DNA from: an uncultured Candidatus Saccharibacteria bacterium
GTDB taxonomy: Bacteria; Patescibacteriota; Saccharimonadia; CAZHVB01
Direction: 5' to 3'
Assembly (NCBI GenBank): GCA_964600295.1
Contig: CAZRIY010000001.1
Span: forward strand, 24,810-88,809
Length of the DNA stretch: 64,000 nucleotides
Part shown: one piece after another, positions 1 through 28,205 of the stretch
Layout: the number at the start of each line of letters is the position of its first letter
Position numbering within the stretch: position 1 is the first letter of the stretch
The notes under the pieces: generated by a model
Databases searched by the model: none
What the model was told of the DNA's origin: nothing
Seen by the model: the letters and a program-made list of their open reading frames with translations, nothing else
Program-made: the position numbers and the translations under genes

Positions 1-1179
1 TTGCAGATACTTTTCTAGGATTCGGGCTTGGCTATTTTTCCGCAGTAGTATAGCGATTTCGGTTGGTGATTGGCCGCGGGACAGGCGCCGTTTAATATCC
101 GTAGCTATCCAGCCGGCTTCTTCTTCATGGGTAAGGAAGGTTTTAAGTTGGGGCGGACTGCTCTGAAATTGTCCGCGAAGCTGCTTATCAATCTGGTAGC
201 GAGCTTCCAGACGATCAGGGTTATTATGTTGTATCAAGCGATATGCACTATCCAAAATTTCTTGGCTTGATCGATAATTTTCAACCAGGGCCAACTGCTT
301 TGCCTTGGGATAGCGTTGCTTAAACTCAAGGACATTGGCTACTGCCGCTCCGCGAAAACGATAGATGGATTGATCATCGTCCCCCACTACCATCACGTTT
401 TTTGCTCGACCCGACAGCAAATCAATCAAGCGGCTCTGAGCCGGGTTGGTATCTTGAAATTCGTCAACCAACAGGTATTTTAATTCGGCCTGGATCTTGC
501 TGGCTACGTTGGCCCGCTTGGTTAATAGTTCCACGGCCAAGGCCACTTGATCGGCAAAGTCGACCAAATTATTCTGGCGCAAAAGTTTTTGGTAGGCACC
601 ATAGGCCCGAGCCAGCTCCAGGTGACGGCCTGCTTCAATTTTTTCTGGTCGGCTTTTGGCCCTAGTCTGGCCGCCTCGCGCAAATTTGGCGTAGGCTTCT
701 GGGTCAATCAACTCGTCCTTCAGTTTGGAGAAATAGGCAGCTAGATCGGCCAACATACCTTCAGGATTTGTAACTGGAGAGTAATAATTTAACTTGAATT
801 GATCTAGATGCTCGCGCATAAAAACCAACTGTTGCGTTTCATTCAACAGACTAAGTTGCTGATTTAATCCCAACTCATAACTAAATCGCCTCAGTAAATT
901 AAACCCGAAAGCATTGAAAGTAGTAATATTTACATCAAAGATATAACTACCCAGCAACTCAATCACCCGGCCTTCCATTTCTCTAGCCGCTTTAGCGGTA
1001 AAAGTGATTGCCAATATTTGGGAAGGTTCTGTTTTTAGTCCATTTATTAGATGAGCAACTCGATTGGTTATGACTTGGGTTTTACCTGTACCAGCCCCAG
1101 CCACCACCAACAACGGCCCCTGGCCGTGCTTAACTGCCGCCTGTTGTTGGGGATTCAGGGCTTTGAAATTTAGCGACAT
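1..1179 (-). CDS. UvrD/PcrA/Rep-family SF1 DNA helicase, partial. N-terminal 393 aa in window; the gene runs past position 1.
   Basis: Start ATG is the complement of 1177-1179. Translation MSLNFKALNPQQQAAVKHGQGPLLVVAGAGTGKT... carries a Walker A motif. The frame stays open, with UvrD-like motifs, all the way to position 1 (checked by hand). Confidence 0.8.
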   Translation of the reverse strand, partial: MSLNFKALNPQQQAAVKHGQGPLLVVAGAGTGKTQVITNRVAHLINGLKTEPSQILAITFTAKAAREMEGRVIELLGSYIFDVNITTFNAFGFNLLRRFSYELGLNQQLSLLNETQQLVFMREHLDQFKLNYYSPVTNPEGMLADLAAYFSKLKDELIDPEAYAKFARGGQTRAKSRPEKIEAGRHLELARAYGAYQKLLRQNNLVDFADQVALAVELLTKRANVASKIQAELKYLLVDEFQDTNPAQSRLIDLLSGRAKNVMVVGDDDQSIYRFRGAAVANVLEFKQRYPKAKQLALVENYRSSQEILDSAYRLIQHNNPDRLEARYQIDKQLRGQFQSSPPQLKTFLTHEEEAGWIATDIKRRLSRGQSPTEIAILLRKNSQARILEKYLQ

Positions 1180-2738
1180 TACATCTTAGTCTTAGGGTGG
1201 ATTCCCAACAATTTCCAATAGGCTTCCATAGCTACTCGAAATTGATCTACTAAGTAGAGTTTGGCGGCCGCTTGAGATTTTGGTAAATCGATAATTCGGT
1301 CTGCCTCATAATATTCGTGGAATAATCGAGCTAGCTCAATTCCATAAAAAGTCAGTTGATGAACCCCATGTGTTTGGGCAATGTCTCGGACTAGCTCGGG
1401 TAGCTGCAAAAGTTGCCGAATCAGCTGCCGTTCATGCACGTCTACCTCTGTTAGTTGCCCGTTTGGTTTTATTCCGAGTCCGCTTGCTCGGCCAAGAATA
1501 GAGTGTGCGCGAGTGTAAGCGTACATCACATAGTAGAAGGGGTTTTTCTGCGATTCTTCTTTGGCCAAGTCCATATCAAAATCCATGTGGGTATTGGCCG
1601 AACGCATCAAGAAGAACCATCGCACTACCTCAGTAGGAATCTCTTCTAATAGCTCATCGACTGTCACGTAAGTTCCGGCCCTTTTACTAATTTTATATTC
1701 CTTACCATCGCGGATAAGTCGCACCCACTGCACAATCACAAACTCTAATACTCTATCTGGCAAAAGTTGTTGTATTGTCAACTTCAAGGAGGGTACCTGG
1801 CCAGCATGATCAGCCCCCCAAACTTTGACTGACCGGTCAAAACCCCTCTCTTTAAATATCTGCCAATGATAGGCTAGATCATTGGCTAAATAGGTTCGAC
1901 CTCCTTGTTTTTTCTCGAGGACGCGGTCGCGCTCGTCGCCCAATTTAGTTGACAACAACCAAATTGCATCATCTCTGGCTGCAACTAATTTGCTGGACTT
2001 AAGTGCCTTTAAAACAGTTTGGTAACTTTGTTCCAGTCCCCGTTCGTTAGTTCTGATGTCAAAACTAACTCCCATACTTTTAATGGCTGGTTCTAAGTAT
2101 TCTTCCCAGATATAAGCGGTCAAAACTTTACTTAAATCAGTTTCTTTAGTTCGACGGTAGAACTTTGTTAAGTCTTTAAGATATTCACCGCGATAGGCTA
2201 TCTCACCTTCCACCTTTTCGCCCGCCGCGGCCTTAATCGATCGTATCAGTTCCTCAATTTGGGTACCTCCGTCGTTGAAATAGTACTCTCGAGTTACTTT
2301 GTTATCAGAGGTAGCCAATACATTTGACAACACGTCACCCACAAAACCGCCGCGGGCATTACCAAGCGTCAATGGACCGGTAGGATTGGCCGAAATAAAC
2401 TCGACCTGGGTTTTTTGTCCTTTACCGCTGTTATTCTGCAGATAATTAGGTTTTATTTGTCCTAATTGACGAATCCAAAAAGCTTGATTCATTACCAGAT
2501 TGATAAAACCGGACCCAGCAACTACAGCCGATTCAATATCGGGGTGTTTTATCTCGGAAACCAGCTGCTTAGCTACCTCTACTGGGGGCTGTTTAAGCTG
2601 TTCTGACAGTTCAAAAGCCACATTGGTGGCAAAATCTCCCAATTGAGCCTCAGGATAGGATATTTTGGGGGTAATATCGATCTTATATGCCCGTTTAACG
2701 GCTTCGGTCACCGCAGTTGTCACCTGCTCACGTATCAT
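1179..2738 (-). CDS. argS: Arginine--tRNA ligase
   Basis: 550-aa ORF at 1179..2831 with ArgS hallmarks (FISANPTGPLTLGNARGG.., class I HIGH/KMSK context). The likely true start is the internal MIREQ.. at 2738, which avoids overlap with smpB. Confidence 0.85.
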   Translation of the reverse strand: MIREQVTTAVTEAVKRAYKIDITPKISYPEAQLGDFATNVAFELSEQLKQPPVEVAKQLVSEIKHPDIESAVVAGSGFINLVMNQAFWIRQLGQIKPNYLQNNSGKGQKTQVEFISANPTGPLTLGNARGGFVGDVLSNVLATSDNKVTREYYFNDGGTQIEELIRSIKAAAGEKVEGEIAYRGEYLKDLTKFYRRTKETDLSKVLTAYIWEEYLEPAIKSMGVSFDIRTNERGLEQSYQTVLKALKSSKLVAARDDAIWLLSTKLGDERDRVLEKKQGGRTYLANDLAYHWQIFKERGFDRSVKVWGADHAGQVPSLKLTIQQLLPDRVLEFVIVQWVRLIRDGKEYKISKRAGTYVTVDELLEEIPTEVVRWFFLMRSANTHMDFDMDLAKEESQKNPFYYVMYAYTRAHSILGRASGLGIKPNGQLTEVDVHERQLIRQLLQLPELVRDIAQTHGVHQLTFYGIELARLFHEYYEADRIIDLPKSQAAAKLYLVDQFRVAMEAYWKLLGIHPKTKM

Positions 2739-2814
2739 ATATCCAGTATCTGGCATCCGGCTATCGGTATCAAGACGCCTGGCTCCTAACTCCTCTATCC
2801 TATATCCTAAAAAT

Positions 2815-3267
2815 ATGAAAGTATTGGCCACTAACCGCCGGGCTAAATATGATTATGAGATCAGTGAACGGCTAGAAGCCGGTATAGTTTTGTCTGGCGC
2901 CGAAGTTAAGAGCGTTAAAGCTGGCCATATTAGCCTTAAGGGCAGCTATATTACCCTGATAGGTGGTGAATTGTATCTGTTAAATGCCCACATTTCGCCC
3001 TATAAGTACGCTAGGCCCAAAAGTTTTGAGGAAACCCGCCGCCGGAAGTTGCTGGTACACAAACGCGAGGCAGACAGACTATCCGGGCTTAAGCAAGCTG
3101 GCCAGGCTTTATTTCCATTGGCTGTTGGAACCAAACATAGCCTGATCAAAGTTGAAGTAGGAGTCGGCCGCGGGCGCCAGCGAACAGACAAGCGCCAAAT
3201 AATTAAAAAACGCCAGGCCGAGCGCGAAATTGCCCGTGCCGTGGCTGCCAAAAACAAAACTCAATAG
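2815..3267 (+). CDS. smpB: SsrA-binding protein SmpB
   Basis: MKVLATNRRAKYDYEISERLEAGIVLSGAEVKSVK...LLVHKRE is canonical SmpB. ATG at 2815. Confidence 0.9.
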   Translation: MKVLATNRRAKYDYEISERLEAGIVLSGAEVKSVKAGHISLKGSYITLIGGELYLLNAHISPYKYARPKSFEETRRRKLLVHKREADRLSGLKQAGQALFPLAVGTKHSLIKVEVGVGRGRQRTDKRQIIKKRQAEREIARAVAAKNKTQ

Positions 3268-3609: not shown

Positions 3610-5271
3610 TTGGAAAATTTGCGGGTGGTGAACTATATTAACCATATGCCTATTGACCAGCGCGATCGCGAAGAAACGGTGGCCCGCCAACGGGCCAGTA
3701 TGCTCAAAGCTATATACACCGATGCCCGCCAAGTTCAGGATCTGGAATCGCTTAGTCAGATTATATCGCTTGATGATATGCAAAAACACCGAATCGTGCC
3801 TCTATTAATGACTTCTCATGATCTGGTACTTGGCTTTACCCAATCAACGCCCCGCCATAACATCAATCAAGTAAAGGCCAAGCTGTCTAGCTTTAATCTA
3901 AGGTTTAATTTGATATCGGATAGTGGTTATAAAGAACTCCTGGACCGCTATACAGCCCTTCTGAAGCCGCCTCGGCCCCCCGACCATAAACAACTGGCAG
4001 ATCGTCTGGCTAGAGCAGTTCTTGAGGCTAAACAAACCGCAGAGGACCCAGATCTTTTCACCAAAAAATTAGCCGATACCAGCCAAAAGGATCTAATCCA
4101 GCTGATCGCCCAGCAAGCCTACTTAATTAACTCGTCCGATATTCATATCGAACCAACGCGTGATGTCATCCGTCTCCGCTTCCGTATCGATGGGGTGTTG
4201 CATCAGGTGGCTACGCTGGCACCCGATCGATTTAACCTGTTGTTGTCGGTGCTCCAGATGCATAGTGGGATTCGTTGGAACGCCAACTATCCGCAGACTG
4301 GACATATGACCGCCGAGTTGGTTAATCACAACGGTGATGTCGGACCAGTCAATATGCGGGTGGAAACCACTCCCACTAACTATGGTAGTGATATTGTCAT
4401 CCGCATCTTTAATCTAGATGTCAGTTATCTCAATCTTGACCACATTGGTCTGAGCCAACGCCACCATCAGGCTATTGAAGAACTAATCAAACATCCCCAC
4501 GGGCTGGGCTTAATTACTGGACCTACCGGTTCGGGTAAAACTTCTACGCTCTATGCCATTTTAAATCGACTAAATACACCGGAAGTCAAAATCATTACTC
4601 TGGAGGATCCGATTGAATACGAGCTTGGCGGATTGACCCAGTTGGCGGTAGATTCTAATCAAGGCCAAAGTTTCGGTGAGCGTTTGCGGGCCGTGCTGCG
4701 CGAAGACCCCGACATTATCATGGTGGGCGAAATTCGCGATCCCGATACTGCTAAGACATCTTTACAATCAGCCTTGACTGGACACTTGGTACTTTCGACC
4801 TTCCACGCCAACTCGGCAGCTGGCGCGGTTAGCCGCTTGATGGACATGATTGGCGCCAATCCGATGGTGGCTTCGGCACTAAAATTAGTAATGACCCAAA
4901 GACTGCTGCGCAAACTTTGTGAACATTGTAAACAAGCCGATAAACCTGGCGAAAAAGAGCTTGAACAAATCAAAAATATCCTGGAAACGCTACCCGAAGG
5001 CCAGCGACCCGACCTAGAAAAAGCCCAGCTCTATAGGAGTAAAGGTTGTGATAAATGCTACCATATTGGCTACAAAGGCCGTTTGATGGTGGCTGAGCAA
5101 TTGATAATGAGCCCAGCCGTTGAGCAACTAATTGCTAGCTTCGCTAGCTCACAGCAAATCCATAGCCAGGCAGTCAAAGAAGGTATGATTACTATCCTCC
5201 AGGATGGCGTGCTCAAAGCCCTAGATGGCTTAACCACGCTCGAAGAAGTTTTTCGCGTCCTGGAAACGTAG
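3610..5271 (+). CDS. pilB: Type IV pilus / type II secretion assembly ATPase (PilB/GspE family)
   Basis: Has the T2SSE N-domain, a Walker A (GPTGSGKTST) and the GspE signature EDPIEY..., plus a C-terminal CxxC..CxxC. The start is TTG at 3610 or ATG at 3645. Confidence 0.85.
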   Translation: MENLRVVNYINHMPIDQRDREETVARQRASMLKAIYTDARQVQDLESLSQIISLDDMQKHRIVPLLMTSHDLVLGFTQSTPRHNINQVKAKLSSFNLRFNLISDSGYKELLDRYTALLKPPRPPDHKQLADRLARAVLEAKQTAEDPDLFTKKLADTSQKDLIQLIAQQAYLINSSDIHIEPTRDVIRLRFRIDGVLHQVATLAPDRFNLLLSVLQMHSGIRWNANYPQTGHMTAELVNHNGDVGPVNMRVETTPTNYGSDIVIRIFNLDVSYLNLDHIGLSQRHHQAIEELIKHPHGLGLITGPTGSGKTSTLYAILNRLNTPEVKIITLEDPIEYELGGLTQLAVDSNQGQSFGERLRAVLREDPDIIMVGEIRDPDTAKTSLQSALTGHLVLSTFHANSAAGAVSRLMDMIGANPMVASALKLVMTQRLLRKLCEHCKQADKPGEKELEQIKNILETLPEGQRPDLEKAQLYRSKGCDKCYHIGYKGRLMVAEQLIMSPAVEQLIASFASSQQIHSQAVKEGMITILQDGVLKALDGLTTLEEVFRVLET

Positions 5272-6146: not shown

Positions 6147-6185
6147 AAAAAATCCCTAGCACAGGATGTGCTCGGGATTTTTTGG
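6147..6185. terminator. Bidirectional intrinsic terminator-like hairpin
   Basis: ATCCCTAGCACA-GGA-TGTGCTCGGGAT stem flanked by an A-run on the 5' side and a T-run on the 3' side. Confidence 0.4.
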
Positions 6186-6607
6186 TGGAGCTGGGGGGTA
6201 TTGCACCCCCGTCCGCAAGCTAACAACCCACTCCTCTACAGGCATAGTCTGCTTGAAAGCATTTAAATCTTCACGCCTAATGTCTAAAAACAGACCAAAT
6301 AACAGTTGGCGCTAACCTTCTATATTCTCGATAAACTGCGAAGGTAACAATTTATCCAGCCGAAAATATGACACCGGGAATCCTCTATTCGGCGTTGAGG
6401 AACCGATGGCTGTATAACCCTTAGGCTACAGCTGGTGCAAACTGTTGAACGTTAAAAACGTTCGCTAGTTTTGCGAATATAGATTTGGCATCTATAAATG
6501 TCGAGCTTAATAACGCTCGGCTCAGAGCGACCTGCCAAGTAGATTGTAAAAGTACTTACGTCGAAGCTTGTCAGCCCCACAAAAAACTTTACCACATCTG
6601 TCAGCTT

Positions 6608-7073: not shown

Positions 7074-7427
7074 ATGGAAGGTCCAAGAGTAAGGACTAAC
7101 TGCCCGCGTTGTGGTCAGGTCGAGTTTGAAGCCGGATACATCTACCTGGATTTTGACCGACAAACAAACGAAGGCGACTACAGTTTCGTCTGTCCGGTCT
7201 GCGAGGAATTGGTTGTGAAGCCAGTCGATCACAAGATTGCAAAGCTGCTAATGGCTATCGGTGTCGAAATCGGCGAAATTAACATACCGGCCGAATTGCA
7301 TGAAGATCGACCCGAAGGTCCAGTCATTACTCTGGACGATGTAGTCGATTTGCACTTCGATCTCCGCGATGAAGCCAAGGTGGCTCTAGCACTTGATGAG
7401 GCACGCTACCTGATTCTCGGACCGTAG
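7074..7427 (+). CDS. Hypothetical zinc-ribbon protein
   Basis: Internal start MEGPRVRTNCPRCGQ.. preceded by a GGGGGAGGTG RBS. Two CxxC pairs (CPRC...CPVC). Confidence 0.5.
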   Translation: MEGPRVRTNCPRCGQVEFEAGYIYLDFDRQTNEGDYSFVCPVCEELVVKPVDHKIAKLLMAIGVEIGEINIPAELHEDRPEGPVITLDDVVDLHFDLRDEAKVALALDEARYLILGP

Positions 7428-7443
7428 AACCTCCTAAAAAGTA

Positions 7444-7511
7444 CCCAGGTGGGGTAGATGTTGAGTCGGGTCTTCTGTCGACTTCCCGGATTCGCTCCCC
7501 CGCCTGGGTAC
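7444..7511. repeat. GC-rich palindromic repeat, copy 1 (CCCRGGTGGGGTAGAT family)
   Basis: CCCAGGTGGGGTAGATG ... CCCCCGCCTGGGTACC form an imperfect inverted repeat. Confidence 0.5.
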
Positions 7512-7523
7512 CTCCCCAAAACG

Positions 7524-7582
7524 CCCGGGTGGGGTAAGTTGTAGACAGGGTCGTTGTCCCCTGGCTCCTTACCCTACCTGGG
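7524..7582. repeat. GC-rich palindromic repeat, copy 2
   Basis: CCCGGGTGGGGTAAG ... CCTTACCCTACCTGGG. Overlaps the 3' end of the hydrolase gene. Confidence 0.5.
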
Positions 7583-8428
7583 TTGCTCTTTATTACGGGC
7601 TTTTTCTTCCAAATTAGTCAACAACTGCTCGGCGGCCGCAGTGTATTTATCTGGATTACGATGCAATTCATCGTGACCACCCTTGACTGATGCAAAACCG
7701 TCCAAATAACCGCCGTAGCCCTCCAGAGTCTTTTGGATATCACCCATCTTAAATAGTGGATCATCAAAGCCCGCCATCACGGCTACGCCTACTCCATCGC
7801 GATGAAGGCCCTTCAAAGCTTCTTGGATTTGTGAGCGAGAGATAGCCTTAGCTTCAGCGGTAGCCCTACGAACATTGTGGAAGGCATACTTAATACCTTC
7901 TCTTTGCTGCATCAATGAATCCTTGGGTAGTTTTTTCATAAAACGCCTAAACAACTTTGGAAAAGTGTCTGGGCCGCTCATACCGCCAGGATTAACAAAC
8001 ACGATGTTGCGGAACATATCTGGCCGAAGCGAGGCCGCAATCGCAACATCAATTCCGCCCTGGGAATGGGCAATTACGTCTACCTGCTCTAGCCCCCTAT
8101 CCGCTATTACCTGCAAGATATTCAGTGCCTTGGCGTAGCCGGCGGGCGGATAGGTTTTATTTTCTGTTCCGAATTCAAAATCTAGTGGTACGTCTTCTAA
8201 AACGCTGTGGCGAGGATGATCTATGGAGATTACTCGACGATTCTCATTGAGTAGCGTATTGATACTGCCCCTCAAAACAACGGGGCCTTCGCTCCAACCA
8301 GGAGCCAGCAGCACTGGTACTTCACTTTTAGGATGCTCCGGCGATAGATCAATTAGTCGGTTCGGTTCAATGACACTTTCGGGAACCGTGGTTGGCACAT
8401 CTTCGAAGCCGGGAGCCAGTTTTTCCAT
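7574..8428 (-). CDS. Alpha/beta-hydrolase fold protein (lipase/esterase-like)
   Basis: AHSQGG nucleophile-elbow motif (GxSxG). Confidence 0.7.
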   Translation of the reverse strand: MEKLAPGFEDVPTTVPESVIEPNRLIDLSPEHPKSEVPVLLAPGWSEGPVVLRGSINTLLNENRRVISIDHPRHSVLEDVPLDFEFGTENKTYPPAGYAKALNILQVIADRGLEQVDVIAHSQGGIDVAIAASLRPDMFRNIVFVNPGGMSGPDTFPKLFRRFMKKLPKDSLMQQREGIKYAFHNVRRATAEAKAISRSQIQEALKGLHRDGVGVAVMAGFDDPLFKMGDIQKTLEGYGGYLDGFASVKGGHDELHRNPDKYTAAAEQLLTNLEEKARNKEQPR

Positions 8429-8580
8429 TTTTATTTTTTAAGGAAATTTACACTATAACTACACCACAGAACTCTCTTAAGTGCAATTCGACTGGACGCA
8501 AAGCGCTTGGCTGTGCTATTACACTCCTGATACTTGATCGAAACAGGTCGATCGAGTTTATGGCACCTCAGGGGGTGACA

Positions 8581-8919
8581 ATGGGCACTGTATATGAACT
8601 GGAGATTCTGTCGGGACCGAACAAGTCAGAACTCGTTCGGTCGCTCAGTGTTGGCAAGGGTTCCGCTCGGAAAATTGTGGAATTTGATGTCAGGCCACGC
8701 TCACGCAAGGAGAATCCGGCTAAGACCTACACGGTCAGAGTCGTGATCGATGGTTTGAGGCGAAGGTTTGGGAACGATACCGACTTGACCATCTGGGCTG
8801 TGTTCGTGGTTGAGCCGGCCAAGTGGTACCAAGAGCCCAAGCCCTACGCAAGACAAGCCATCAGGGGCATCTATGATGCCAACGGCCATACCGGCTTTTT
8901 CAAGTTTGTGAAATCCTGA
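8581..8919 (+). CDS. Hypothetical protein
   Basis: Internal ATG at 8581 behind a GGGGGTGA RBS. The longer ORF from 8392 probably overextends. Confidence 0.4.
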   Translation: MGTVYELEILSGPNKSELVRSLSVGKGSARKIVEFDVRPRSRKENPAKTYTVRVVIDGLRRRFGNDTDLTIWAVFVVEPAKWYQEPKPYARQAIRGIYDANGHTGFFKFVKS

Positions 8920-8923
8920 AGTG

Positions 8924-8967
8924 CCCGGGTGGGGTAGATATGAGTCTTTGACTTCTCTACCCCACCC
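8924..8967. repeat. GC-rich palindromic repeat, copy 3
   Basis: GGGTGGGGTAGA-17nt-TCTACCCCACCC, a perfect 12-bp stem. Confidence 0.55.
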
Positions 8968-9136
8968 TTTGTTGTATAACTATATTAAGATTATGCTTGA
9001 CCTCCGTTAAAATTGGTCTTAAATTACGCGATCGCTGTTTTTAAAACCAATTTTGAAAGAATATTGTTCTTGTTTGTGATATCACATTGCTAGTATGGGG
9101 TGGTTTGTTTGTTACAATAAGCTAAAGCATTAAGGG

Positions 9137-10093
9137 ATGGGGATGACACCGCAGGATCCGAACGCTAAATCGCAGATTCGGAAGCACTACTATCTGGAGC
9201 AATACGTAGTAATTGCTCCCAAACGCACGCACTCGCTGCACCACGAGGAATTTTCCAAAACTGGTAGCTTGCGCAATCCGCCGCTGGAAGATGAACCCAG
9301 TGTTTATGAAATTCCCGGCGAGGATGGTCATTGGGCAGTCAAAGTTATTAGCAATCTTTACCCTGCCTTCTCTACGGCCAATGACCATGCCTATGGCGCA
9401 CAGGAAGTGGTGCTGATATCTCGCGACCCCACGGATATACCCATCGGACGATTGCCACTTGATCAGATTGAACGTGTATTCAAAGCTTACCAGCACCGCA
9501 TCGCGGCCCTGCGCGGACTAAAGGATATAAACTACGTCAGCGTCTTCCACAATCAAGGTTTGGAAGCCGGAGCCAGCGTTAAACAAACCCATTCTCAAAT
9601 TATTGCCACTCAGCTTATACCGCCAGCTCTCAAGCGTCACGCCGAAGTTTTTAGCCAATTGCGCCGCCGTTATGGCGTTTCACCCATGAGCAGAGCCATA
9701 GCCTGGGAACGCGAGCAGCAGGTCCGGGTAATCTATTCCGATCGTTATATGTCGGCCATCTGCCCTTATGCCAGCCAATACCCTTTTGAGGTTTGGATCG
9801 TACCCAAAGCCCAAGTGAGATCGATCCGCGAGATGTCCCGCAGCCAATTCCACGCCTTGGCTGTTGCCCTCAAAGTAGTGGTGCTGGGGCTAGAAACCGA
9901 GCAGATTAGTTACAATTTTCATCTGATAGAAGACGTTAAGGGCATGGACAACCACTTTATGATCCAGCTGGTCCCCCGGCCAAACATCTGGGCGGGTTTT
10001 GAACTCAATACTGGTGTAGCTATTAACCCAGTGGCGCCCGAAGAGGCCGCATTTTGGTACCGCTCCTTTATTGAAGAACGCGATGCTCTATAG
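9137..10093 (+). CDS. GalT-like nucleotidyltransferase (galactose-1-phosphate uridylyltransferase family, HIT superfamily)
   Basis: FHNQGLEAGASVKQTHSQIIAT aligns with the GalT FENKG...HPHGQI active-site region. About 318 aa. Confidence 0.65.
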   Translation: MGMTPQDPNAKSQIRKHYYLEQYVVIAPKRTHSLHHEEFSKTGSLRNPPLEDEPSVYEIPGEDGHWAVKVISNLYPAFSTANDHAYGAQEVVLISRDPTDIPIGRLPLDQIERVFKAYQHRIAALRGLKDINYVSVFHNQGLEAGASVKQTHSQIIATQLIPPALKRHAEVFSQLRRRYGVSPMSRAIAWEREQQVRVIYSDRYMSAICPYASQYPFEVWIVPKAQVRSIREMSRSQFHALAVALKVVVLGLETEQISYNFHLIEDVKGMDNHFMIQLVPRPNIWAGFELNTGVAINPVAPEEAAFWYRSFIEERDAL

Positions 10094-10104
10094 AAGTAGC
10101 TATT

Positions 10105-10439
10105 ATGCTGGCTAAAGTTTTTGGCGCTGCCAACACCGGTTTTGATTCTCAGCCAGTGGAAGTTGAATGTGATATTGCAGCCGGGCTGCCCAACAGGAAC
10201 GATTCGAAAACTCGCGCAAAACCAATGCTGATATGACAAATGCCGATATTAAACTCTTTTGCGGTCTGGATAATGCCGCCACCCAAATCTTAACCAAAGC
10301 CATGAATGCGCTGGATCTATCTGCCAGGGCCTATATGCGGGTGCTCAAGGTCGCCCGAACCATCGCCGACTTGTCTGGGACAAAAACCATCGCTACACCG
10401 CATCTGACTGAAGCTTTACAGTACCGCGTCAGCCGCTAG
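10105..10439 (+). pseudogene. comM: comM/yifB (Mg-chelatase-like ATPase) remnant: N-terminal 30 aa and C-terminal ~68 aa, frameshifted, with ~1.2 kb internally deleted
   Basis: MLAKVFGAANTGFDSQPVEVECDIAAGLPN is a ComM N-terminus. After a frame change the ComM C-terminus follows (..LSARAYMRVLKVARTIADLSGTKTIATPHLTEALQYR). The AAA+ core is absent. Confidence 0.75.
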
Positions 10440-10448
10440 CTACAACAT

Positions 10449-10751
10449 TCAGATTTGGATCCAGTTGTAGAGCTGCTCGTCGAGCAGGCTTGCGCGAAAA
10501 ACCAGCCAGAGCACAATCTGAGCTGCCAGCAGGCTGCCAAGCACAACTAAACTGATGCGTAAATCGCGGTGAGTTAATGAACGCTTGTTTATGACTGTTG
10601 TAGTTTTCTCGACAGACGGAGTAGTTACTAACGCGGACTTGGGACCGGCTGGCTCGGCTGGTTTTAACAACTTTAAATCTTTGCTAAATTGGAATTGCCG
10701 TCGTTCGGCGGCACGCTGTTTTTGGGCCTTCGTCCGATGCTTTTTTACCAT
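10449..10751 (-). CDS. Hypothetical small membrane protein
   Basis: 100 aa, basic N-terminus, one C-terminal TM. Confidence 0.3.
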   Translation of the reverse strand: MVKKHRTKAQKQRAAERRQFQFSKDLKLLKPAEPAGPKSALVTTPSVEKTTTVINKRSLTHRDLRISLVVLGSLLAAQIVLWLVFRASLLDEQLYNWIQI

Positions 10752-10780
10752 TAAATTGAGTATATCACCAGGATTGATAT

Positions 10781-11287
10781 ATGCTGGGACTAATGGGACA
10801 AGAGCCAGCCAGCTTGGTATGGATAGTGGTAGCCGTCAATTCAGTTGCTATATTGTTCGGCCTCTATTGGGTGGTCCGCCTTAGGCGGCGATTTCAAGCA
10901 GCTCTAGGCAATCTCGATAGCCAACAGGATCTAGCCCAAACCCTGGCCGATTATTTCCACAAATTGGGAGTTACGGCCAAAACTCTGGATAATCTTAAGT
11001 CCAGTTATCAGCACTTGGCCGCTATCGCTGGCCGCTCAATTCAAAAGACTGGTATCGTCCGTTTTAACCCCTTCCGCGATACCGGTGGCGATCAAAGTTT
11101 TGTCCTAGCCCTACTGGATAATCGTGATAATGGTTTTCTGATGACTAGTATCCATGGCCGCGAAGGCACCCGAATTTATGTCAAATCAATCATCTATGGA
11201 GCCAGTCGGCACCAATTATCAACCGAGGAAACCAAAGCCCTGAAGAATGCCAAACTAGGAGCTGTTAAGGAAGCGGGCAATGGCTAA
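10781..11287 (+). CDS. DUF4446-like membrane protein
   Basis: N-terminal TM, then conserved VRFNPFRDTGGDQSF / MTSIHGREGTRIYVK motifs. Confidence 0.5.
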   Translation: MLGLMGQEPASLVWIVVAVNSVAILFGLYWVVRLRRRFQAALGNLDSQQDLAQTLADYFHKLGVTAKTLDNLKSSYQHLAAIAGRSIQKTGIVRFNPFRDTGGDQSFVLALLDNRDNGFLMTSIHGREGTRIYVKSIIYGASRHQLSTEETKALKNAKLGAVKEAGNG

Positions 11288-11642
11288 AAATATTAACCCA
11301 AATACGGAGCAAACCGTGATTGCAACAAAAGTCCAGGTGAAGGGCACGCTGATTTGCCAAAATGATCTGTGGTTCGATGGATTAATTGCCGGAGACATCG
11401 AGGCTGGCGGTGATGTCACCATAGGCCCCAACGCGGTTGTCACCGGTAATATCTCAGGCGTCAATCTAAGCGTTGCTGGGCAAGTCCACGGCAACCTTAA
11501 TGCTTTAGACGCCCTAAGTGTAGCCACCACCGCGATTGTGCAAGGAGATATTAAGACCAAAAAACTAGAGGTAGCTGGCGGTGCCTCTATCTCTGGCAAC
11601 CTGCGCATGGAGCAGGCCGAGCCCACAGGTACCCCGGCCTAG
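11280..11642 (+). CDS. Bactofilin (polymer-forming cytoskeletal protein)
   Basis: Beta-helical bactofilin (DUF583) repeats. The start overlaps the upstream stop (ATGGCTAA). Confidence 0.8.
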   Translation: MAKNINPNTEQTVIATKVQVKGTLICQNDLWFDGLIAGDIEAGGDVTIGPNAVVTGNISGVNLSVAGQVHGNLNALDALSVATTAIVQGDIKTKKLEVAGGASISGNLRMEQAEPTGTPA

Positions 11643-11653
11643 TTTAGTTATCT

Positions 11654-12487
11654 ATGTATTACTACATTGTTAATCCAGCAGCCGGCGGTGGCCTGATTAA
11701 CAGTATCCAGGATCGACTGAAAGCCAATCTAAATGAGTTGAAGATTGATGGAGAATTTGCCAAGACATTGGGACCGGGTGACGCCCTCAAGGTTACCCAA
11801 ACAGCTCTGGAAAAAGGCGCCAAAACCATCGTAGCGGTGGGCGGCGGTGAAACGGTAAATGAAGTCATAGCAGCCATTTATAAAGCTGGTCATCCTGAAG
11901 TTGCCATTGGTATTATTCCCACCGGCAAACAAAACTGGCTGGCCCAATATTTGGGTATTAGTAGCTGGCGTGAAGCGCCCGAAGTCCTAGCAGCCCGGCG
12001 GTTGATGGAGTACAAACTAATGACAGTTAATGACGAGGTTTTTATTCACTTTTTAAACCTGGCGACTCATCTGCCCGAGCCCGAAGATGAAGAACAAAAA
12101 CAGCGGTGGCAAAAAGTTCTCGAACGACCCGAAGCTCCGCCGCCCTTAAATTATAAAATCGAAGTTGATGGTGGCTATAAAATACGTGGCCAGGCAGACT
12201 TAATTACTATCCACAATCAGAAATTTCTCGATCTAGCACAAGATAATCGCTTAATGATGCGTCTACATGCTTCAGCCAATCAATCCCGCCTAAGACAGCA
12301 GCTGAGTCGGTTGAGAAAAAGTGGTCGATCACCCACTCTATCTCAACTTACTGCCGAGAAATTACATTTGCGGCTGCAACGCCCAGCCGAAGCGGTTCTA
12401 GATGGCAAATCAATTATTGGTAAGCACTTCCGAGTGGCTATGACCGATCAACATTTACGATTAATCGCTAAGTCACAGCGAGTTTGA
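11654..12487 (+). CDS. Diacylglycerol-kinase-family lipid kinase (YegS/BmrU-like)
   Basis: DAGK_cat domain: IVAVGGGETVNEV..., IIPTGKQNW. Confidence 0.7.
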   Translation: MYYYIVNPAAGGGLINSIQDRLKANLNELKIDGEFAKTLGPGDALKVTQTALEKGAKTIVAVGGGETVNEVIAAIYKAGHPEVAIGIIPTGKQNWLAQYLGISSWREAPEVLAARRLMEYKLMTVNDEVFIHFLNLATHLPEPEDEEQKQRWQKVLERPEAPPPLNYKIEVDGGYKIRGQADLITIHNQKFLDLAQDNRLMMRLHASANQSRLRQQLSRLRKSGRSPTLSQLTAEKLHLRLQRPAEAVLDGKSIIGKHFRVAMTDQHLRLIAKSQRV

Positions 12488-12550
12488 CAGGGGTAATGGC
12501 TTACTGCTACACTACCCCTGAAAATCGGTACGCATAAGGAGAGGCAAGAG

Positions 12551-13060
12551 ATACAGAACAAACCACCACGGACTAATCAAGAGATTCGGGCGAAAGAGGT
12601 CCGTTTGATTGATGAATCCGGAGCCCAAGCAGGCATTGTACCGATAGCCGAAGCCTTGAATTTAGCCTCATCCGCTGGACTTGATCTTGTAGAAATAGCA
12701 CCCAGCGCCCAACCGCCCGTGGCCAAAATAGTCGATTGGGGCAAGTGGCGCTATCAGCAAACCAAACAAGAGCAAAAAGCCCGCAAGAAACATCGCGTTC
12801 AGGATGTAAAGCAGATGCGATTCGGCCTCAAAATCGGCCAGCATGATCGGGAAGTTAAGCTGCGCAAAGTCCGCCAATTCCTAGAAAACGGCGATAAAGT
12901 AAAACTGTCAGTTTTTTTCCGCGGCCGAGAAATGGCCCATCCTGAAATCGGCCACCAGCTACTAGACCGTCTGGTAGCAGAATTATCCGATATTTCGGTG
13001 GTGGATCAAGCACCTCAGATGCTGGGTAAATACTTGAATCTGACCCTACGCAAAAAATAG
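12551..13060 (+). CDS. infC: Translation initiation factor IF-3, with a non-AUG (ATA) start
   Basis: IF-3 homology (..NQEIRAKEVRLIDESG..) extends upstream of the first ATG/TTG. There is an in-frame ATA at 12551, 6 nt after a GGAGAGG RBS and just after a stop. infC uses an atypical start codon in other bacteria. Confidence 0.8.
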   Translation: MQNKPPRTNQEIRAKEVRLIDESGAQAGIVPIAEALNLASSAGLDLVEIAPSAQPPVAKIVDWGKWRYQQTKQEQKARKKHRVQDVKQMRFGLKIGQHDREVKLRKVRQFLENGDKVKLSVFFRGREMAHPEIGHQLLDRLVAELSDISVVDQAPQMLGKYLNLTLRKK

Positions 13061-13126
13061 GTTGTTTCCAGTTTGGTATCTTTCCAGATATAATTGTCTA
13101 GACTAATTAATGAGCAGGGGTTAGGT

Positions 13127-13321
13127 ATGCCTAAGCTGAAGGTACATCGTGGTACCAAAAAACGGATTAGATTGACTGGCAATGGCAAGATGCTAAGACG
13201 CCGGGCTTTTGGCAATCACTTTTTGGCCAAAAAGAGCTCCTCACGTAAGCGCGGCTTGTCCAAAGAATATCAGCTCAAAACTGGGGATAAGAGCCGGATC
13301 AAGCGCAGTCTTGGAGTCTAG
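13127..13321 (+). CDS. rpmI: 50S ribosomal protein L35
   Basis: MPKLKVHRGTKKRIRLTGNGK... Confidence 0.85.
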   Translation: MPKLKVHRGTKKRIRLTGNGKMLRRRAFGNHFLAKKSSSRKRGLSKEYQLKTGDKSRIKRSLGV

Positions 13322-13324
13322 GGT

Positions 13325-13720
13325 ATGAGAGTTAAACGTGGTGTCACCGCCCGCAAACGCCATAAAAAGCTATTGAAGCAAACCAAAGGTATGAGCCGTG
13401 CTCGGCGCACCAGTTCGCGGCTGGCTCGTCAAGCCGTAACCAAGAGCTTGAGCTACGCTTACCGCGACAGGCGAACCCGCAAACGCGACTTACGCCGGCT
13501 TTGGATTATCCGTATCAACGCAGCGGCTCGCGAGTCTGGAACTTCCTACTCACAACTGGCCGGTCAGCTAAAAACTGCCAATATAAAACTGGATCGCAAA
13601 ATCCTGGCCGAGTTGGCCGTTAACTATCCCAAAGTTTTCGCCGACATAGCCCAAGCCGCTCAAAAACCCGCCCCAAAACTCGCCACGCAGGCAAAAACCA
13701 AGACACCAACTAAAGCTTGA
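13325..13720 (+). CDS. rplT: 50S ribosomal protein L20
   Basis: [22 protein letters not shown].. Conserved infC-rpmI-rplT order. Confidence 0.9.
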
Positions 13721-13754: not shown

Positions 13755-14123
13755 CGAGACTGCTGGATGATCGCTTCCGCCTTCGGGTGTGAGAGGAAAG
13801 TCCGGACAGCGTAGGGTAAGGACGGTCGCTAACGGCGACCGGGTGTGAGCCCAGGGAAAGTGCCACAGAGACTATACTAGCCCCGCCATCGGCGGGGCCA
13901 AAGGTGAAAAGTGTCGCCATAGGCGACTCCCGTGTTGGTGACAACACGTGGTGGTAAACCCCGTCCGCTGCAAGGTAGCTGGTTCATTATCTCGGAGCTA
14001 ATCTGGGAATTCTGGTACCCGCCAAGAACCGGCGATATAGAGCCGCACGAGCTCGCGCAGCAATGCGGAGCCAAGATAGATGATCATTCTTGACAGAATC
14101 CGGCTTACAGGCAGTCTCGAGCA
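13755..14123 (+). ncRNA. rnpB: RNase P RNA (bacterial type A)
   Basis: GAGGAAAGTCCGGAC P4 5' strand. ACAGAATCCGGCTTAC P4 3' strand. GGTAAACCCC...GCAAGG element. P1 pairing CGAGACTGC/GCAGTCTCG. Confidence 0.85.
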
Positions 14124-25882: not shown

Positions 25883-25959
25883 TGTTATAATACTACCTAC
25901 TCGGGCTCTTAGCTCAGTTGGCTAGAGCGCTTCCTTGACGTGGAAGAGGTCAGAGGTTC
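25883..25959 (+). tRNA. tRNA-Val (anticodon GAC)
   Basis: Acceptor GGGCTCT/AGAGCCC; anticodon loop TTGACGT; CCA encoded. Confidence 0.85.
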
Positions 25960-25998
25960 GAATCCTCTAGAGCCCACCAAAAAGGAGACCACAGAATA

Positions 25999-26193
25999 AT
26001 GAATATTATATTAGTCATCACGTTATTTGCGGCAATTTTAGCCGCTGTGATATTTGGACGCAGCGGGGGCCTTAAACGTCTGTTTGAGCTCCAGCCGGGG
26101 ATTAGGATCGCCTTATCGGTATTGATTGTTGGTGGGGCGCTTGGACTGGGAATTCTGGCTGCTTTTGCGCTGTTGGCTCTGATTCTACAATAG
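25999..26193 (+). CDS. Small hydrophobic membrane protein
   Basis: 64 aa with two TM segments. Strong AAGGAG RBS 8 nt upstream. Confidence 0.45.
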   Translation: MNIILVITLFAAILAAVIFGRSGGLKRLFELQPGIRIALSVLIVGGALGLGILAAFALLALILQ

Positions 26194-26317
26194 CCTTTAC
26201 CGCTTGTGGGGCATTTATGCCTTGACGCCATAATATATTACAGACCGATTGCACAGCTCACCGGTTCGAAACTGACATATATTTTGAAAGCTGATACACT
26301 TTTGGTACACTAATAAT

Positions 26318-26536
26318 ATGTCTACTGCTAAAACCAGAATTAACATTAGTCTACCCGATGAAGTCAAAGAAGCGCTGGTTGAACTAGCTAAGCGTGATCG
26401 TGTTCCGGCTGCTACTAAGGCTGGCAGGTTACTCGAAATTGGTCTTGAACTCGAAGAGGATTTAGTTTGGGACAAAATTGCCGCCAGACGTGATACTAAA
26501 GACGCTAACTTTTTGTCTCACGCCCAAGCTTTTTAG
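26318..26536 (+). CDS. Ribbon-helix-helix antitoxin (RelB/ParD-like)
   Basis: TRINISLPDEVKEAL... RHH motif. Lies 3 nt upstream of the RelE-like gene. Confidence 0.6.
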   Translation: MSTAKTRINISLPDEVKEALVELAKRDRVPAATKAGRLLEIGLELEEDLVWDKIAARRDTKDANFLSHAQAF

Positions 26537-26539
26537 CCG

Positions 26540-26812
26540 ATGTATGAGATCTTCTACCACGAGGGCGTAGTTAGATCGGACATCCCCAAACTAAGCAGCG
26601 AGTGGAAATCTAAAATCCAGAAAGCCATTACGGCCAAGTTAACCAGCCGACCCGAAGTTTACGGTAAGCCGTTGCGCCGTTCGTTAAAAAACTACAGAAA
26701 GTTGCGGGTGGGTGATTATCGGGTAATTTTCCGCATCGAAGGTAAGGCGGTCAAAGTCTTTATTATTCAGCACCGGTCGGTCGTGTATTCATCTGCTCGT
26801 AATCGTATCTAG
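26540..26812 (+). CDS. RelE/ParE-family type II toxin
   Basis: KLRVGDYRVIFRIE..IQHRSVVY, typical of RelE/StbE. Confidence 0.7.
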   Translation: MYEIFYHEGVVRSDIPKLSSEWKSKIQKAITAKLTSRPEVYGKPLRRSLKNYRKLRVGDYRVIFRIEGKAVKVFIIQHRSVVYSSARNRI

Positions 26813-26903
26813 GTTTATTATTTTCAGATTTACTTACCTTAACCCATAGCTCTAAGGAAGAGCGTGGCTACCACGTTTGTATTGTAGACAATTCGCATGA
26901 GTT

Positions 26904-27146
26904 CTAACGCCTTTTAGCTCGACTCACTTCTTTGCCGGCTCGTACGCAGTCCTCATCTGAAACTAGACCAGCTTGCTCGACTATGGCACTGAGTTCGTCA
27001 GCTCCTGCTGCCAGAGCATCCCAGGCTTCAGTGTCTTGGGTGCGCAAGCGGCTAACCACCGCTTGGCGGATGTATTCACTGCGGATGCCATATTGATCCT
27101 TAGCAGCTCTATCTATTTTCTTTACTAATTCCTTGGGGGTTGCCAT
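26904..27146 (-). CDS. Ribbon-helix-helix (CopG/Arc-like) DNA-binding protein
   Basis: SEYIRQAVVSRL RHH signature. Confidence 0.45.
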   Translation of the reverse strand: MATPKELVKKIDRAAKDQYGIRSEYIRQAVVSRLRTQDTEAWDALAAGADELSAIVEQAGLVSDEDCVRAGKEVSRAKRR

Positions 27147-27213
27147 ATAAATCCTACATTAATCGTATGTAAGTTTTGCATGCTCTGGTCGCTTATGGCT
27201 CAATGAGTAATTC

Positions 27214-28062
27214 TCAAGCCTCTTCCCAAATCTGCCCCAGAGCTCCATGCTCTTTCAGCTTCTCTGTTGTCGTAAATCGCATATGTGGCCTGTCTTCGTC
27301 GTCTCGTTCCCAGATGTCTGCTATCAGTCCTCTGGTTCGGCGCTTGGCATAAATCAGGTCAGTGGTGGTTGGACAAATCAACAAGATGATCGGTACCGGG
27401 TCGCCATAGGTTTCGCTCTCCCATTCGTCCATTTCTTCATCTAAATATTCAACATATTTCTTCAGCCTATAGCGCAATCGGTAACGTGGTAGGGTGGCAT
27501 CAAACACCTCCAACAGATAACTTTCAACAGCGTGCGGTTCGCCCAGACCATCGTACTGCTCTTTGGAAAAACACAGGTGCGGATGAATCAGCTCATTGTC
27601 GCTCAAAAAGTGGTAGTAGCTATCACTCAAGTAGTCGGCTTCAGTTTCGTAGAAATACCAGGTTTGGGGATACCCACTCTCATCGCTACCATCTTCAAGA
27701 CTAATGCAAGAATCTGCAATCAGCAGACAGCGATCTATAAAGCTTTGGCTGCGCTCATGTTCTCGGTATCGCTTGCGGATTTCTCCGGCTGGATGGGAAT
27801 CTCTATTCTGCAGCTGCCGTATGCCGTTAATACCTAGATAGTAGATGGCTGGCTTGGTCTTCTCGGCAAAGTGGTCCGGATTGTAGATCCAATTGATATA
27901 CGCCTTGGCTCGTAGGTCTCTTAGCCATAGGTTAATAGTCTTTTTATCTTTATGCTTTAGTATTGTCTGTATTTGTATTCTAATTAAGAATCTATGGGTA
28001 TATAGAAGATCAAGTATCTCTCTTTGTTTCCCGGTTATTTTTGGCGCTTGTTGTAGTTTCAT
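27214..28062 (-). CDS. Replication-relaxation family protein (associated with plasmids and integrative elements)
   Basis: N-terminal ..ITGKQREILDLLYTHRFLIRIQIQ.., the family's wHTH signature. Sits in AT-rich DNA. Confidence 0.45.
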   Translation of the reverse strand: MKLQQAPKITGKQREILDLLYTHRFLIRIQIQTILKHKDKKTINLWLRDLRAKAYINWIYNPDHFAEKTKPAIYYLGINGIRQLQNRDSHPAGEIRKRYREHERSQSFIDRCLLIADSCISLEDGSDESGYPQTWYFYETEADYLSDSYYHFLSDNELIHPHLCFSKEQYDGLGEPHAVESYLLEVFDATLPRYRLRYRLKKYVEYLDEEMDEWESETYGDPVPIILLICPTTTDLIYAKRRTRGLIADIWERDDEDRPHMRFTTTEKLKEHGALGQIWEEA

Positions 28063-28205
28063 TTTGCCAAACCCTCCTACTCCCTATATGTATAAAGGTA
28101 GGTACCACTATAGCTGGAAAATAACAGATTGGCACAAGCGCAATCCTGCCCTCGCCCGTGGGGGCAGAAATAATCGAGCTTTTTTACTCGTGCGGTTGGC
28201 AAGCT

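What the first reader, a model, noticed from the sequence alone, without database searches (positions are those of the whole stretch)
10105..10439. comM (Mg-chelatase-like ATPase) reduced to a ~330-bp frameshifted stub
A recognisable ComM N-terminus (30 aa) is fused, after a frame change and a short junk stretch, to the ComM C-terminal ~68 aa. The entire AAA+ core (~1.2 kb) is missing.

This is a snapshot of reductive gene loss. comM is also a classic integration target for genomic islands in other bacteria, so this could be an excision scar.
Basis: partly seen in the sequence, partly recalled or inferred. Interest (0 to 1): 0.5.

Follow-up and report, generated by a model that had tools for sequence, protein, structure and literature searches.

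The report
Recently deleted comM gene remnant
This is the dead remnant of comM, a DNA-recombination helicase gene used in natural transformation, in an uncultivated Patescibacteria genome: one recent 1.17-kb internal deletion removed the whole motor, which makes it an ordinary but cleanly documented gene loss.

Summary
Window 10105-10439 carries codons 1-29 of comM (10105-10191) joined directly to codons 419-500 plus the stop (10191-10439, one frame back). The "junk stretch" is C-terminal coding sequence read in the wrong frame, so the C-terminal remnant is 82 aa, not 68.

A single deletion of about 1168 bp (1 mod 3) explains both the missing Lon-like and AAA+ domains and the frameshift.

- Eight related contigs have an intact roughly 500-aa comM at the same place (galT, 11-bp spacer, comM, small minus-strand ORF, DUF4446, bactofilin, DAGK, infC).
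- The closest relative (GalT 83% identical) has no comM at all.
- The remnant keeps 35 of 35 strongly conserved residues and has no internal stops, while synonymous sites between the window and that closest relative are saturated. The deletion is therefore recent, and the relative's loss was independent.
- No foreign DNA, recombinase or duplication sits at the junction, so an island excision scar is not supported.
- An independent assembly of run SRR6868922 has the identical sequence.

Verdict: an ordinary pseudogene, reductive loss of a transformation gene. Interest is low.

The parts
10105..10191 (+). comM N-terminal remnant, codons 1-29 (start of the Lon-protease-like domain), frame 1
   Evidence: Aligns to residues 1-29 of intact syntenic ComM. 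tblastn gives 80% identity over 30 aa. All 8 strongly conserved columns are kept. The ATG lies 11 nt after the galT stop, as in L003, L006 and L004.
10179..10192 (+). Deletion junction zone. The stretch AGCCGGGCTGCCC reads as A-G-L-P (residues 26-29) in frame 1 and as (S)R-A-A in frame 3, which resembles the 'AR..' residues 415-418 that precede Q..RF in intact orthologues. It is a possible short direct repeat at which the deletion occurred.
   Evidence: Codon-level comparison with L003, L005, L006 and L091. tblastn extends the C-terminal match back to 10179. The closest intact relative has GCCAAAGGCT at the 5' site and GCCAGGGCT at the 3' site. The repeat in the ancestor of the window is inferred, not seen.
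10191..10439 (+). comM C-terminal remnant, codons 419-500 plus TAG stop (most of the Mg_chelatase_C domain), frame 3
   Evidence: Pfam PF13335 E=2e-26. TIGR00368 positions 419-499. Ungapped alignment to L003, L005 and L091 at 70-71% aa identity. 27 of 27 strongly conserved columns are kept.
10105..10236 (+). 43-aa ORF made of 29 ComM residues plus 14 out-of-frame codons, ending in TGA
10233..10439 (+). 68-aa ORF called as a gene in the public record. It starts at an internal, ancestrally conserved Met codon, and its ATG overlaps the TGA of the 43-aa ORF (ATGA).
   Evidence: The exact protein P0001 is present in NCBI and Logan. The Met is conserved in NADMT/NADMS of L003, L005 and L091.
9137..10093 (+). 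galT-like (GalP_UDP_transf/DUF4931) gene, upstream syntenic anchor, probably co-transcribed with the remnant
   Evidence: Promoter-like sites occur only upstream of it, at 8985-9025.
10449..10751 (-). Conserved 100-aa small ORF convergent with comM, downstream syntenic anchor
   Evidence: A homologous 100-aa ORF is present in L002. Minus-strand small ORFs of 92-116 aa sit at this position, between comM and DUF4446, in L003, L005, L089, L091 and L092; their homology to the window ORF was not tested.
10781..11287 (+). DUF4446 gene, downstream syntenic anchor, followed by bactofilin, DAGK, infC, rpmI and rplT

Best explanation
The locus is a comM (YifB-family AAA+ branch-migration helicase) pseudogene created by one recent internal deletion of about 1168 bp. 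The deletion joined codon 29 to codon 419 one nucleotide out of frame. It removed nearly all of the Lon-like hexamerisation domain, the linker, and the whole AAA+ ATPase with its zinc finger, so no helicase can be made.

The break probably happened by slippage or illegitimate recombination at a short GC-rich direct repeat of the GCCGGGCT type (inferred).

The remnant is still transcribed passively behind galT (inferred). At most it yields a 43-aa peptide and perhaps a 68-aa C-terminal fragment with no expected activity.

The lineage has lost the ComM step of natural transformation, that is, three-strand branch migration after RecA/DprA-mediated invasion. A sister lineage lost the whole gene independently, which fits relaxed selection on comM and the deletional bias of reduced Patescibacteria genomes.
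For: Shown:
- Identity of both ends with ComM.
- The intact orthologue L005 is a full TIGR00368 member (596.8 bits against a cutoff of 362.4) and matches Legionella ComM PDB 8RXD at E=3e-122.
- Intact comM at the same syntenic position in L003, L005, L089, L090 and L092 (499-500 aa), in L006+L091 (two unitigs of one run that overlap by 30 nt and together give 500 aa), and in L007 and L008 (open to the contig end).
- galT-comM adjacency also holds in 6 of the 15 more distant Patescibacteria loci scanned (L009-L023), and 4 more have comM within about 2.5 kb.
- L002 (GalT 83% identical, closest to the window by GalT identity) has only 39 unalignable bp between galT and the small ORF.
- 335 bp remain of an expected 1503 bp, so 1168 bp are deleted (1 mod 3), which accounts for the frameshift by itself.

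Recency:
- 35 of 35 strongly conserved residues are kept, with no stop or indel in either piece.
- dN of the C-terminal piece against L003 and L005 (0.26, 0.27) equals dN between L003 and L005 (0.27).
- dS between the window and L002 is at least 1.5, i.e. saturated.
- Simulation: P=0.013 of keeping these residues after 0.05 neutral substitutions per site.

Not an assembler quirk of one pipeline: the Logan contig of SRR6868922 is 100% identical over 6207 bp, including the junction.

ComM function and domain layout come from PMC6158740 and PMC11612176.
Against: - The ancestral allele of this strain is not available, so the exact breakpoints and the repeat are inferred.
- Reads were not inspected, so a minority or heterogeneous allele cannot be excluded.
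- The good preservation of the pieces would also fit continued selection on the remnant.
- The rest of the genome was not available. A second comM copy or a compensating radA cannot be ruled out beyond these 64 kb, where tblastn found only the stub.
Confidence: 0.85

Rival explanations
1. The remnant is still functional. The 68-aa Mg_chelatase_C fragment (10233-10439) would be translated by termination-reinitiation at the ATGA overlap with the 43-aa ORF and retained for some role, for example binding a ComM partner.
For: Both pieces are free of stops and keep all conserved residues. An ATGA stop/start overlap exists. The ORF is called as a gene in the public record. Rare N+C 'mini-ComM' ORFs exist in other metagenomes (P0074, P0255, P0267).
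Against: - The closest relative lacks the whole gene.
- The Met and the overlapping TGA are inherited from the ancestral NADMT codons, so the ATGA is a by-product.
- The mini-ComM ORFs are singletons with different junctions, not a family.
- In the ComM structure the Mg-chelatase domains decorate the ATPase ring and do not contact each other (PMC11612176), so an isolated fragment has no evident role.
- Preservation is equally explained by recency.
Confidence: 0.06
2. Assembly or population artefact: the organism, or most of its population, has an intact comM, and the contig shows a collapsed or minority deletion allele.
For: The sequence comes from a metagenome assembly and the reads were not examined here. 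The NCBI contig and the Logan contig may derive from the same run.
Against: Two different assemblers give the identical junction. The possible repeat at the junction is at most about 13 nt, far below assembly k-mer sizes, so a repeat collapse is not expected. Complete loss in the sister lineage shows that comM is dispensable in this clade.
Confidence: 0.06
3. Excision scar of a comM-targeting genomic island: an element once sat in comM and took the gene core with it on imprecise excision.
For: comM is the preferred target of AbaR-type islands in Acinetobacter baumannii (PMC11441513).
Against: - There are no foreign nucleotides, duplication, inverted repeat, integrase or transposase at or near the junction.
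- Flanks are collinear with relatives.
- None of the 18 intact related comM loci examined carries an insertion.
- A deletion at a short direct repeat explains the junction without any element.
- The nearest element-like genes lie 16 kb away, at 26.3-28.1 kb.
Confidence: 0.02

Closest known systems
ComM / YifB family Mg-chelatase-like AAA+ ATPase (TIGR00368; Pfam ChlI + Mg_chelatase + Mg_chelatase_C; Legionella pneumophila ComM, PDB 8RXD)
   Same: Both ends of the stub are orthologous to this family by sequence and by synteny. Intact neighbours' genes are full members.
   Different: Only residues 1-29 and 419-500 remain, out of frame. There is no Lon-like ring, no Walker A/B motifs, no zinc finger and no DNA-binding loops. 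It is a pseudogene, not a member protein.
comM disrupted by AbaR-type resistance islands in Acinetobacter baumannii (PMC11441513)
   Same: The same gene is inactivated. The expected phenotype is the same: reduced recombination of transforming DNA with DNA uptake left intact.
   Different: There the gene is split by an inserted island and both halves persist. Here 1.17 kb of the gene is deleted and no element is present.
Competence-gene decay in host-associated or reduced bacteria (for example comEC interrupted in Piscirickettsia salmonis, PMC12955456, abstract only seen), and deletional pseudogenisation in reduced genomes generally (general knowledge)
   Same: A transformation gene is lost through mutation in a lineage with a reduced genome, and the loss recurs independently in a sister lineage.
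   Different: The mechanism here is a simple internal deletion, not IS insertion. The host clade is Patescibacteria, where competence is thought to be widespread (PMC10633639).

Membership tests
ComM/YifB (TIGR00368) | Whole-protein score above the curated cutoff (362.4 bits) | tested here: not met
   The fused stub scores 80.6 bits and matches profile positions 419-499 only. The intact orthologue L005 scores 596.8 bits.
ComM/YifB (TIGR00368) | N-terminal Lon-protease-like (ChlI, PF13541) domain of about 170 residues | tested here: not met
   Only the first 29 residues remain and there is no Pfam hit. They align to residues 1-29 of the orthologues.
ComM/YifB (TIGR00368) | AAA+ core (PF01078) with Walker A GPPGAGKT, Walker B and the embedded Cys zinc finger | tested here: not met
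   Absent. The alignment shows residues 30-418 missing and no PF01078 hit.
ComM/YifB (TIGR00368) | C-terminal Mg_chelatase_C domain (PF13335) | tested here: met
   E=2e-26, 92.8 bits against a cutoff of 26, profile positions 18-94 of 94.
ComM/YifB (TIGR00368) | Orthology by conserved gene neighbourhood in relatives | tested here: met
   The order galT, comM, small minus-strand ORF, DUF4446, bactofilin, DAGK, infC is seen in L003, L005, L089, L090, L092 and L006+L091.
ComM/YifB (TIGR00368) | Helicase / branch-migration activity and a role in transformation | not testable with these tools
   Needs biochemistry or genetics. Absence of the ATPase makes activity impossible in principle.
Genomic-island insertion or excision scar in comM | Element remnants at the junction (terminal repeats, target-site duplication, att site, recombinase or transposase gene) | tested here: not met
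   The gene ends abut directly. The neighbouring ORFs are housekeeping genes and syntenic with relatives.
Programmed -1 frameshift gene | In-frame X XXY YYZ slippery heptamer in the overlap of the two frames (10173-10233) | tested here: not met
   None found. The intact orthologues are single ORFs.

The most novel reading that the evidence does not exclude
comM loss in this small Patescibacteria clade is not neutral decay but repeated, selected inactivation of the recombination branch of natural transformation while DNA uptake and pili are kept: two independent deletions in sister lineages, with the PilB-like ATPase retained nearby. A variant of this reading is that the surviving 68-aa Mg_chelatase_C ORF, coupled through an ATGA overlap, is expressed and has acquired a role of its own.
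Probability: 0.08. Interest if true: 0.4.

Novelty: new member of a known kind. Interest (0 to 1): 0.2.

Why it matters
The finding is modest.

- It corrects the public annotation, where a 68-aa "Mg_chelatase_C" ORF is called as a gene although it is a fragment of a pseudogene.
- It gives a well-dated example of deletional gene loss in a reduced genome, with intact, stub and absent states in close relatives.
- It shows that ComM is conserved next to galT across many Saccharibacteria-like Patescibacteria, and can still be lost. This bears on how general recombination-competent natural transformation is in this phylum, where competence is the basis of the only genetic tools (PMC10633639).

It does not reveal a new mechanism.

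Tried and rejected
- A GTDB scan with the single GalT protein found nothing. The alignment-based scan reached only relatives with at most 48% GalT identity.
- Two exact-pattern scans of JGI metagenome contigs found nothing, so the pre-deletion allele was not recovered. One used the comM 5' flank and the other the conserved galT 3' end.
- Alignment of the 39-bp L002 spacer to the stub gave only scattered matches, with no recognisable comM residue.
- The cluster look-up gave no accession or organism name for the source.
- Programmed frameshifting was rejected: there is no slippery heptamer.
- Island scar was rejected: there are no element features.
- A 'mini-ComM family' was rejected: only three singleton ORFs with different junctions appear among 270 listed hits.
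- The first dN/dS run on the C-terminal piece used a slice one nucleotide off and was redone correctly.
- The library search found no paper that mentions ComM together with Patescibacteria and competence.

Full report
**1. What is in the sequence**

Window 10105-10439 holds two short ORFs.
- The first runs 10105-10236 (43 aa, frame 1).
- The second runs 10233-10439 (68 aa, frame 3).

The first 29 residues of the 43-aa ORF are MLAKVFGAANTGFDSQPVEVECDIAAGLP. Frame 3 is open further upstream than the ATG at 10233. From 10191 it reads QQERFENSRKTNADMTNADIKLFCGLDNAATQILTKAMNALDLSARAYMRVLKVARTIADLSGTKTIATPHLTEALQYRVSR*.
- This 82-aa stretch matches Pfam Mg_chelatase_C at E=2e-26 (92.8 bits, profile positions 18-94 of 94).
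- It matches positions 419-499 of TIGR00368, "YifB family Mg chelatase-like AAA ATPase".
- The N-terminal 29 aa are too short for a Pfam hit.
- They are 76-83% identical to residues 1-29 of intact syntenic orthologues, and tblastn gives 80% over 30 aa.
- In an exhaustive search of 1.8 billion representative proteins, full-length (about 500-520 aa) ComM proteins match the fused query in two stretches, with the main one at about 418-506.

The "short junk stretch" is not junk: 10192-10232 is the C-terminal coding sequence (QERFENSRKTNAD) seen in the wrong frame.

**2. The orthologous locus in relatives**

I used the upstream neighbour, a GalT-like protein at 9137-10093, to find relatives and fetched their contigs. 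The states of comM are as follows.
- Full-length comM of 499-500 aa directly after galT, followed by one or two small minus-strand ORFs and, where the contig extends that far, DUF4446: L003 (GCA_016204215.1, GalT 60% identical), L005 (58%), L089, L090 and L092. Bactofilin, DAGK, infC, rpmI and rplT follow in L003 and L089.
- L006 (GalT 78%) carries the first 198 codons up to the contig end.
- L091, from the same run, starts with the last 311 codons. It overlaps L006 by an exact 30 nt, so the two give a complete 500-aa gene.
- L007 and L008 are open to their contig ends.
- L005's ComM is a full TIGR00368 member (596.8 bits against a cutoff of 362.4). It matches the solved Legionella ComM (PDB 8RXD) at E=3e-122.
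- Of the 15 more distant Patescibacteria and Saccharibacteria species representatives scanned (L009-L023), 6 also have comM directly after galT and 4 more have it within about 2.5 kb; the other 5 show none in the fetched flank.

The closest relative is different. L002 (GalT 83% identical, DUF4446 76%) has no comM. Only 39 bp separate the galT stop from the stop of the conserved minus-strand 100-aa ORF. Those 39 bp do not align to the stub.

GalT identities are 83% (window-L002), 78% (window-L006) and 76% (L002-L006). L002 is therefore the window's closest relative by GalT identity; no tree was built.

**3. Anatomy of the deletion**

The intact genes are 1503 bp and the stub is 335 bp, so 1168 bp are missing. 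That is 1 mod 3, so a single event accounts for both the missing core and the frame change.
- Codons 1-29 occupy 10105-10191.
- Codons 419-500 plus the stop occupy 10191-10439.
- The two parts share one nucleotide.

The junction may be wider than that.
- The stretch 10179-10191 (AGCCGGGCTGCCC) reads A-G-L-P in frame 1 and (S)R-A-A in frame 3.
- Intact orthologues have A-R-x-x at residues 415-418 before Q..RF (ARAI in L091, ARRR in L003, ARNR in L005).
- tblastn extended the C-terminal match back to 10179.
- The closest intact relative has GCCAAAGGCT at the 5' site and GCCAGGGCT at the 3' site.

A short GC-rich direct repeat in different frames at the two sites is therefore a plausible substrate for slippage or illegitimate recombination. 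This is inference, because the ancestral allele was not recovered.

**4. Age of the deletion**
- The two pieces contain no stop or indel. They keep 8 of 8 (N) and 27 of 27 (C) columns that are conserved in at least 9 of 11 intact homologues.
- dN of the C-terminal piece against L003 (0.262) and L005 (0.271) equals dN between L003 and L005 (0.270), so there is no excess change on the stub lineage.
- Synonymous divergence between the window and L002 is saturated: dS is 1.5-3 in four flanking genes.
- In a simple simulation, the probability of keeping these residues and open frames falls to 0.013 at 0.05 neutral substitutions per site, and to about 0 at 0.1. The 27 C-terminal positions were approximated by positions identical in the stub, L003 and L005.

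If the stub is neutral, the deletion is much younger than the window/L002 split. The complete loss in L002 is then a separate event. So comM was lost twice in this small clade.

**5. Artefact check**

A contig from the Logan assembly of run SRR6868922 is 100% identical to window 7233-13439, junction included. The 68-aa ORF is also recorded from an NCBI contig of 236,763 bp. A repeat of at most 13 nt cannot cause a k-mer collapse. Read-level support could not be checked.

**6. Consequences and mechanism**

ComM is a hexameric AAA+ helicase that drives branch migration of transforming DNA (PMC6158740).
- The N-terminal Lon-like domain forms the hexamer scaffold.
- The AAA+ ring with its zinc finger binds and moves DNA.
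- The C-terminal Mg-chelatase domains decorate the ATPase ring without touching each other (PMC11612176).

The stub lacks everything needed for ring formation, ATP hydrolysis and DNA binding, so it is non-functional as ComM.

It sits 11 nt behind galT, and promoter-like sites occur only upstream of galT. It is therefore probably still transcribed (inferred). There is no slippery heptamer that would fuse the frames. The ATGA overlap between the two ORFs derives from the ancestral NADMT codons.

Saccharibacteria are naturally competent through ComEC (PMC10633639). The window keeps a PilB-like T2SSE ATPase at 3610-5271. Whether comEC, dprA and the other competence genes persist elsewhere in the genome could not be examined.

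**7. Excision-scar idea**

AbaR islands target comM in Acinetobacter (PMC11441513). Here there is no inserted or leftover foreign sequence, no recombinase, and perfect collinearity of the flanks with relatives. None of the intact related loci carries an insertion. The idea is not supported.

**8. Source organism**

No close species representative exists in the GTDB-based collection. The best matches are MAGs titled Candidatus Saccharibacteria, Patescibacteria or "Microgenomates". The window is typical of such genomes, with housekeeping genes, tmRNA and SmpB, RNase P RNA, and two giant ORFs.

**9. Verdict**

This is a real, correctly located comM remnant: an ordinary pseudogene made by one recent internal deletion, with independent complete loss in the sister lineage. 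It is a known kind of feature and of low general interest. It is useful mainly for correcting the annotation and as a data point on the dispensability of ComM in Patescibacteria.

Noticed in passing
window 25980-28100: Directly 3' of tRNA-Val(gac) (25903-25979) lies a small cluster that looks like a mobile-element remnant. It holds an RHH-like 72-aa ORF (26318-26536) with an adjacent RelE/ParE-like 90-aa ORF (26540-26812), a CopG-like 80-aa ORF (26904-27146, minus strand) and a Replic_Relax (PF13814) protein (27214-28062, minus strand). No att-like repeat of the tRNA end was found.
   Followed up: partly
window 41134-49779 (-) and 50034-62942 (-): Two giant ORFs of 2881 aa and 4302 aa. The first has no Pfam match. 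The second has a CBM_4_9 carbohydrate-binding domain and a C-terminal Peptidase_S74 (endosialidase intramolecular chaperone) domain, so it is probably a huge surface or fibre protein.
   Followed up: partly
metagenome proteins P0074 (142 aa), P0255 (126 aa), P0267 (162 aa): Unrelated metagenome contigs encode in-frame 'mini-ComM' ORFs. These join about 40-90 N-terminal residues directly to the last 50-85 residues (in P0255 the junction is just before 'AERF', close to the one here). All are singletons with different junctions, so they look like sporadic independent internal deletions or assembly chimeras rather than a family.
   Followed up: partly
L091 1244-2746 (-): The closest relative with an intact comM has an extra 500-aa minus-strand ORF with no Pfam match. 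It is inserted between the small ORF downstream of comM and DUF4446, and it is absent from the window and from L002.
   Followed up: no
window 2665-3267 (+), 6183-6578 (-), 13755-14123 (+): SmpB, tmRNA (tag AKSIFAKLANVFNVQQFAPAVA) and class-A RNase P RNA all lie within 12 kb of the stub. The ORF as listed overlaps the argS ORF (1179-2831, minus strand) by about 165 nt, and the SmpB match starts at residue 55, so the true SmpB start is probably internal.
   Followed up: no
window 3610-5271 (+): A PilB-like type II/IV secretion ATPase (T2SSE, E=6e-107) is retained a few kb upstream of galT. The same arrangement is seen in relatives L005, L089 and L090. The pilus machinery therefore persists although comM is dead.
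   Followed up: partly
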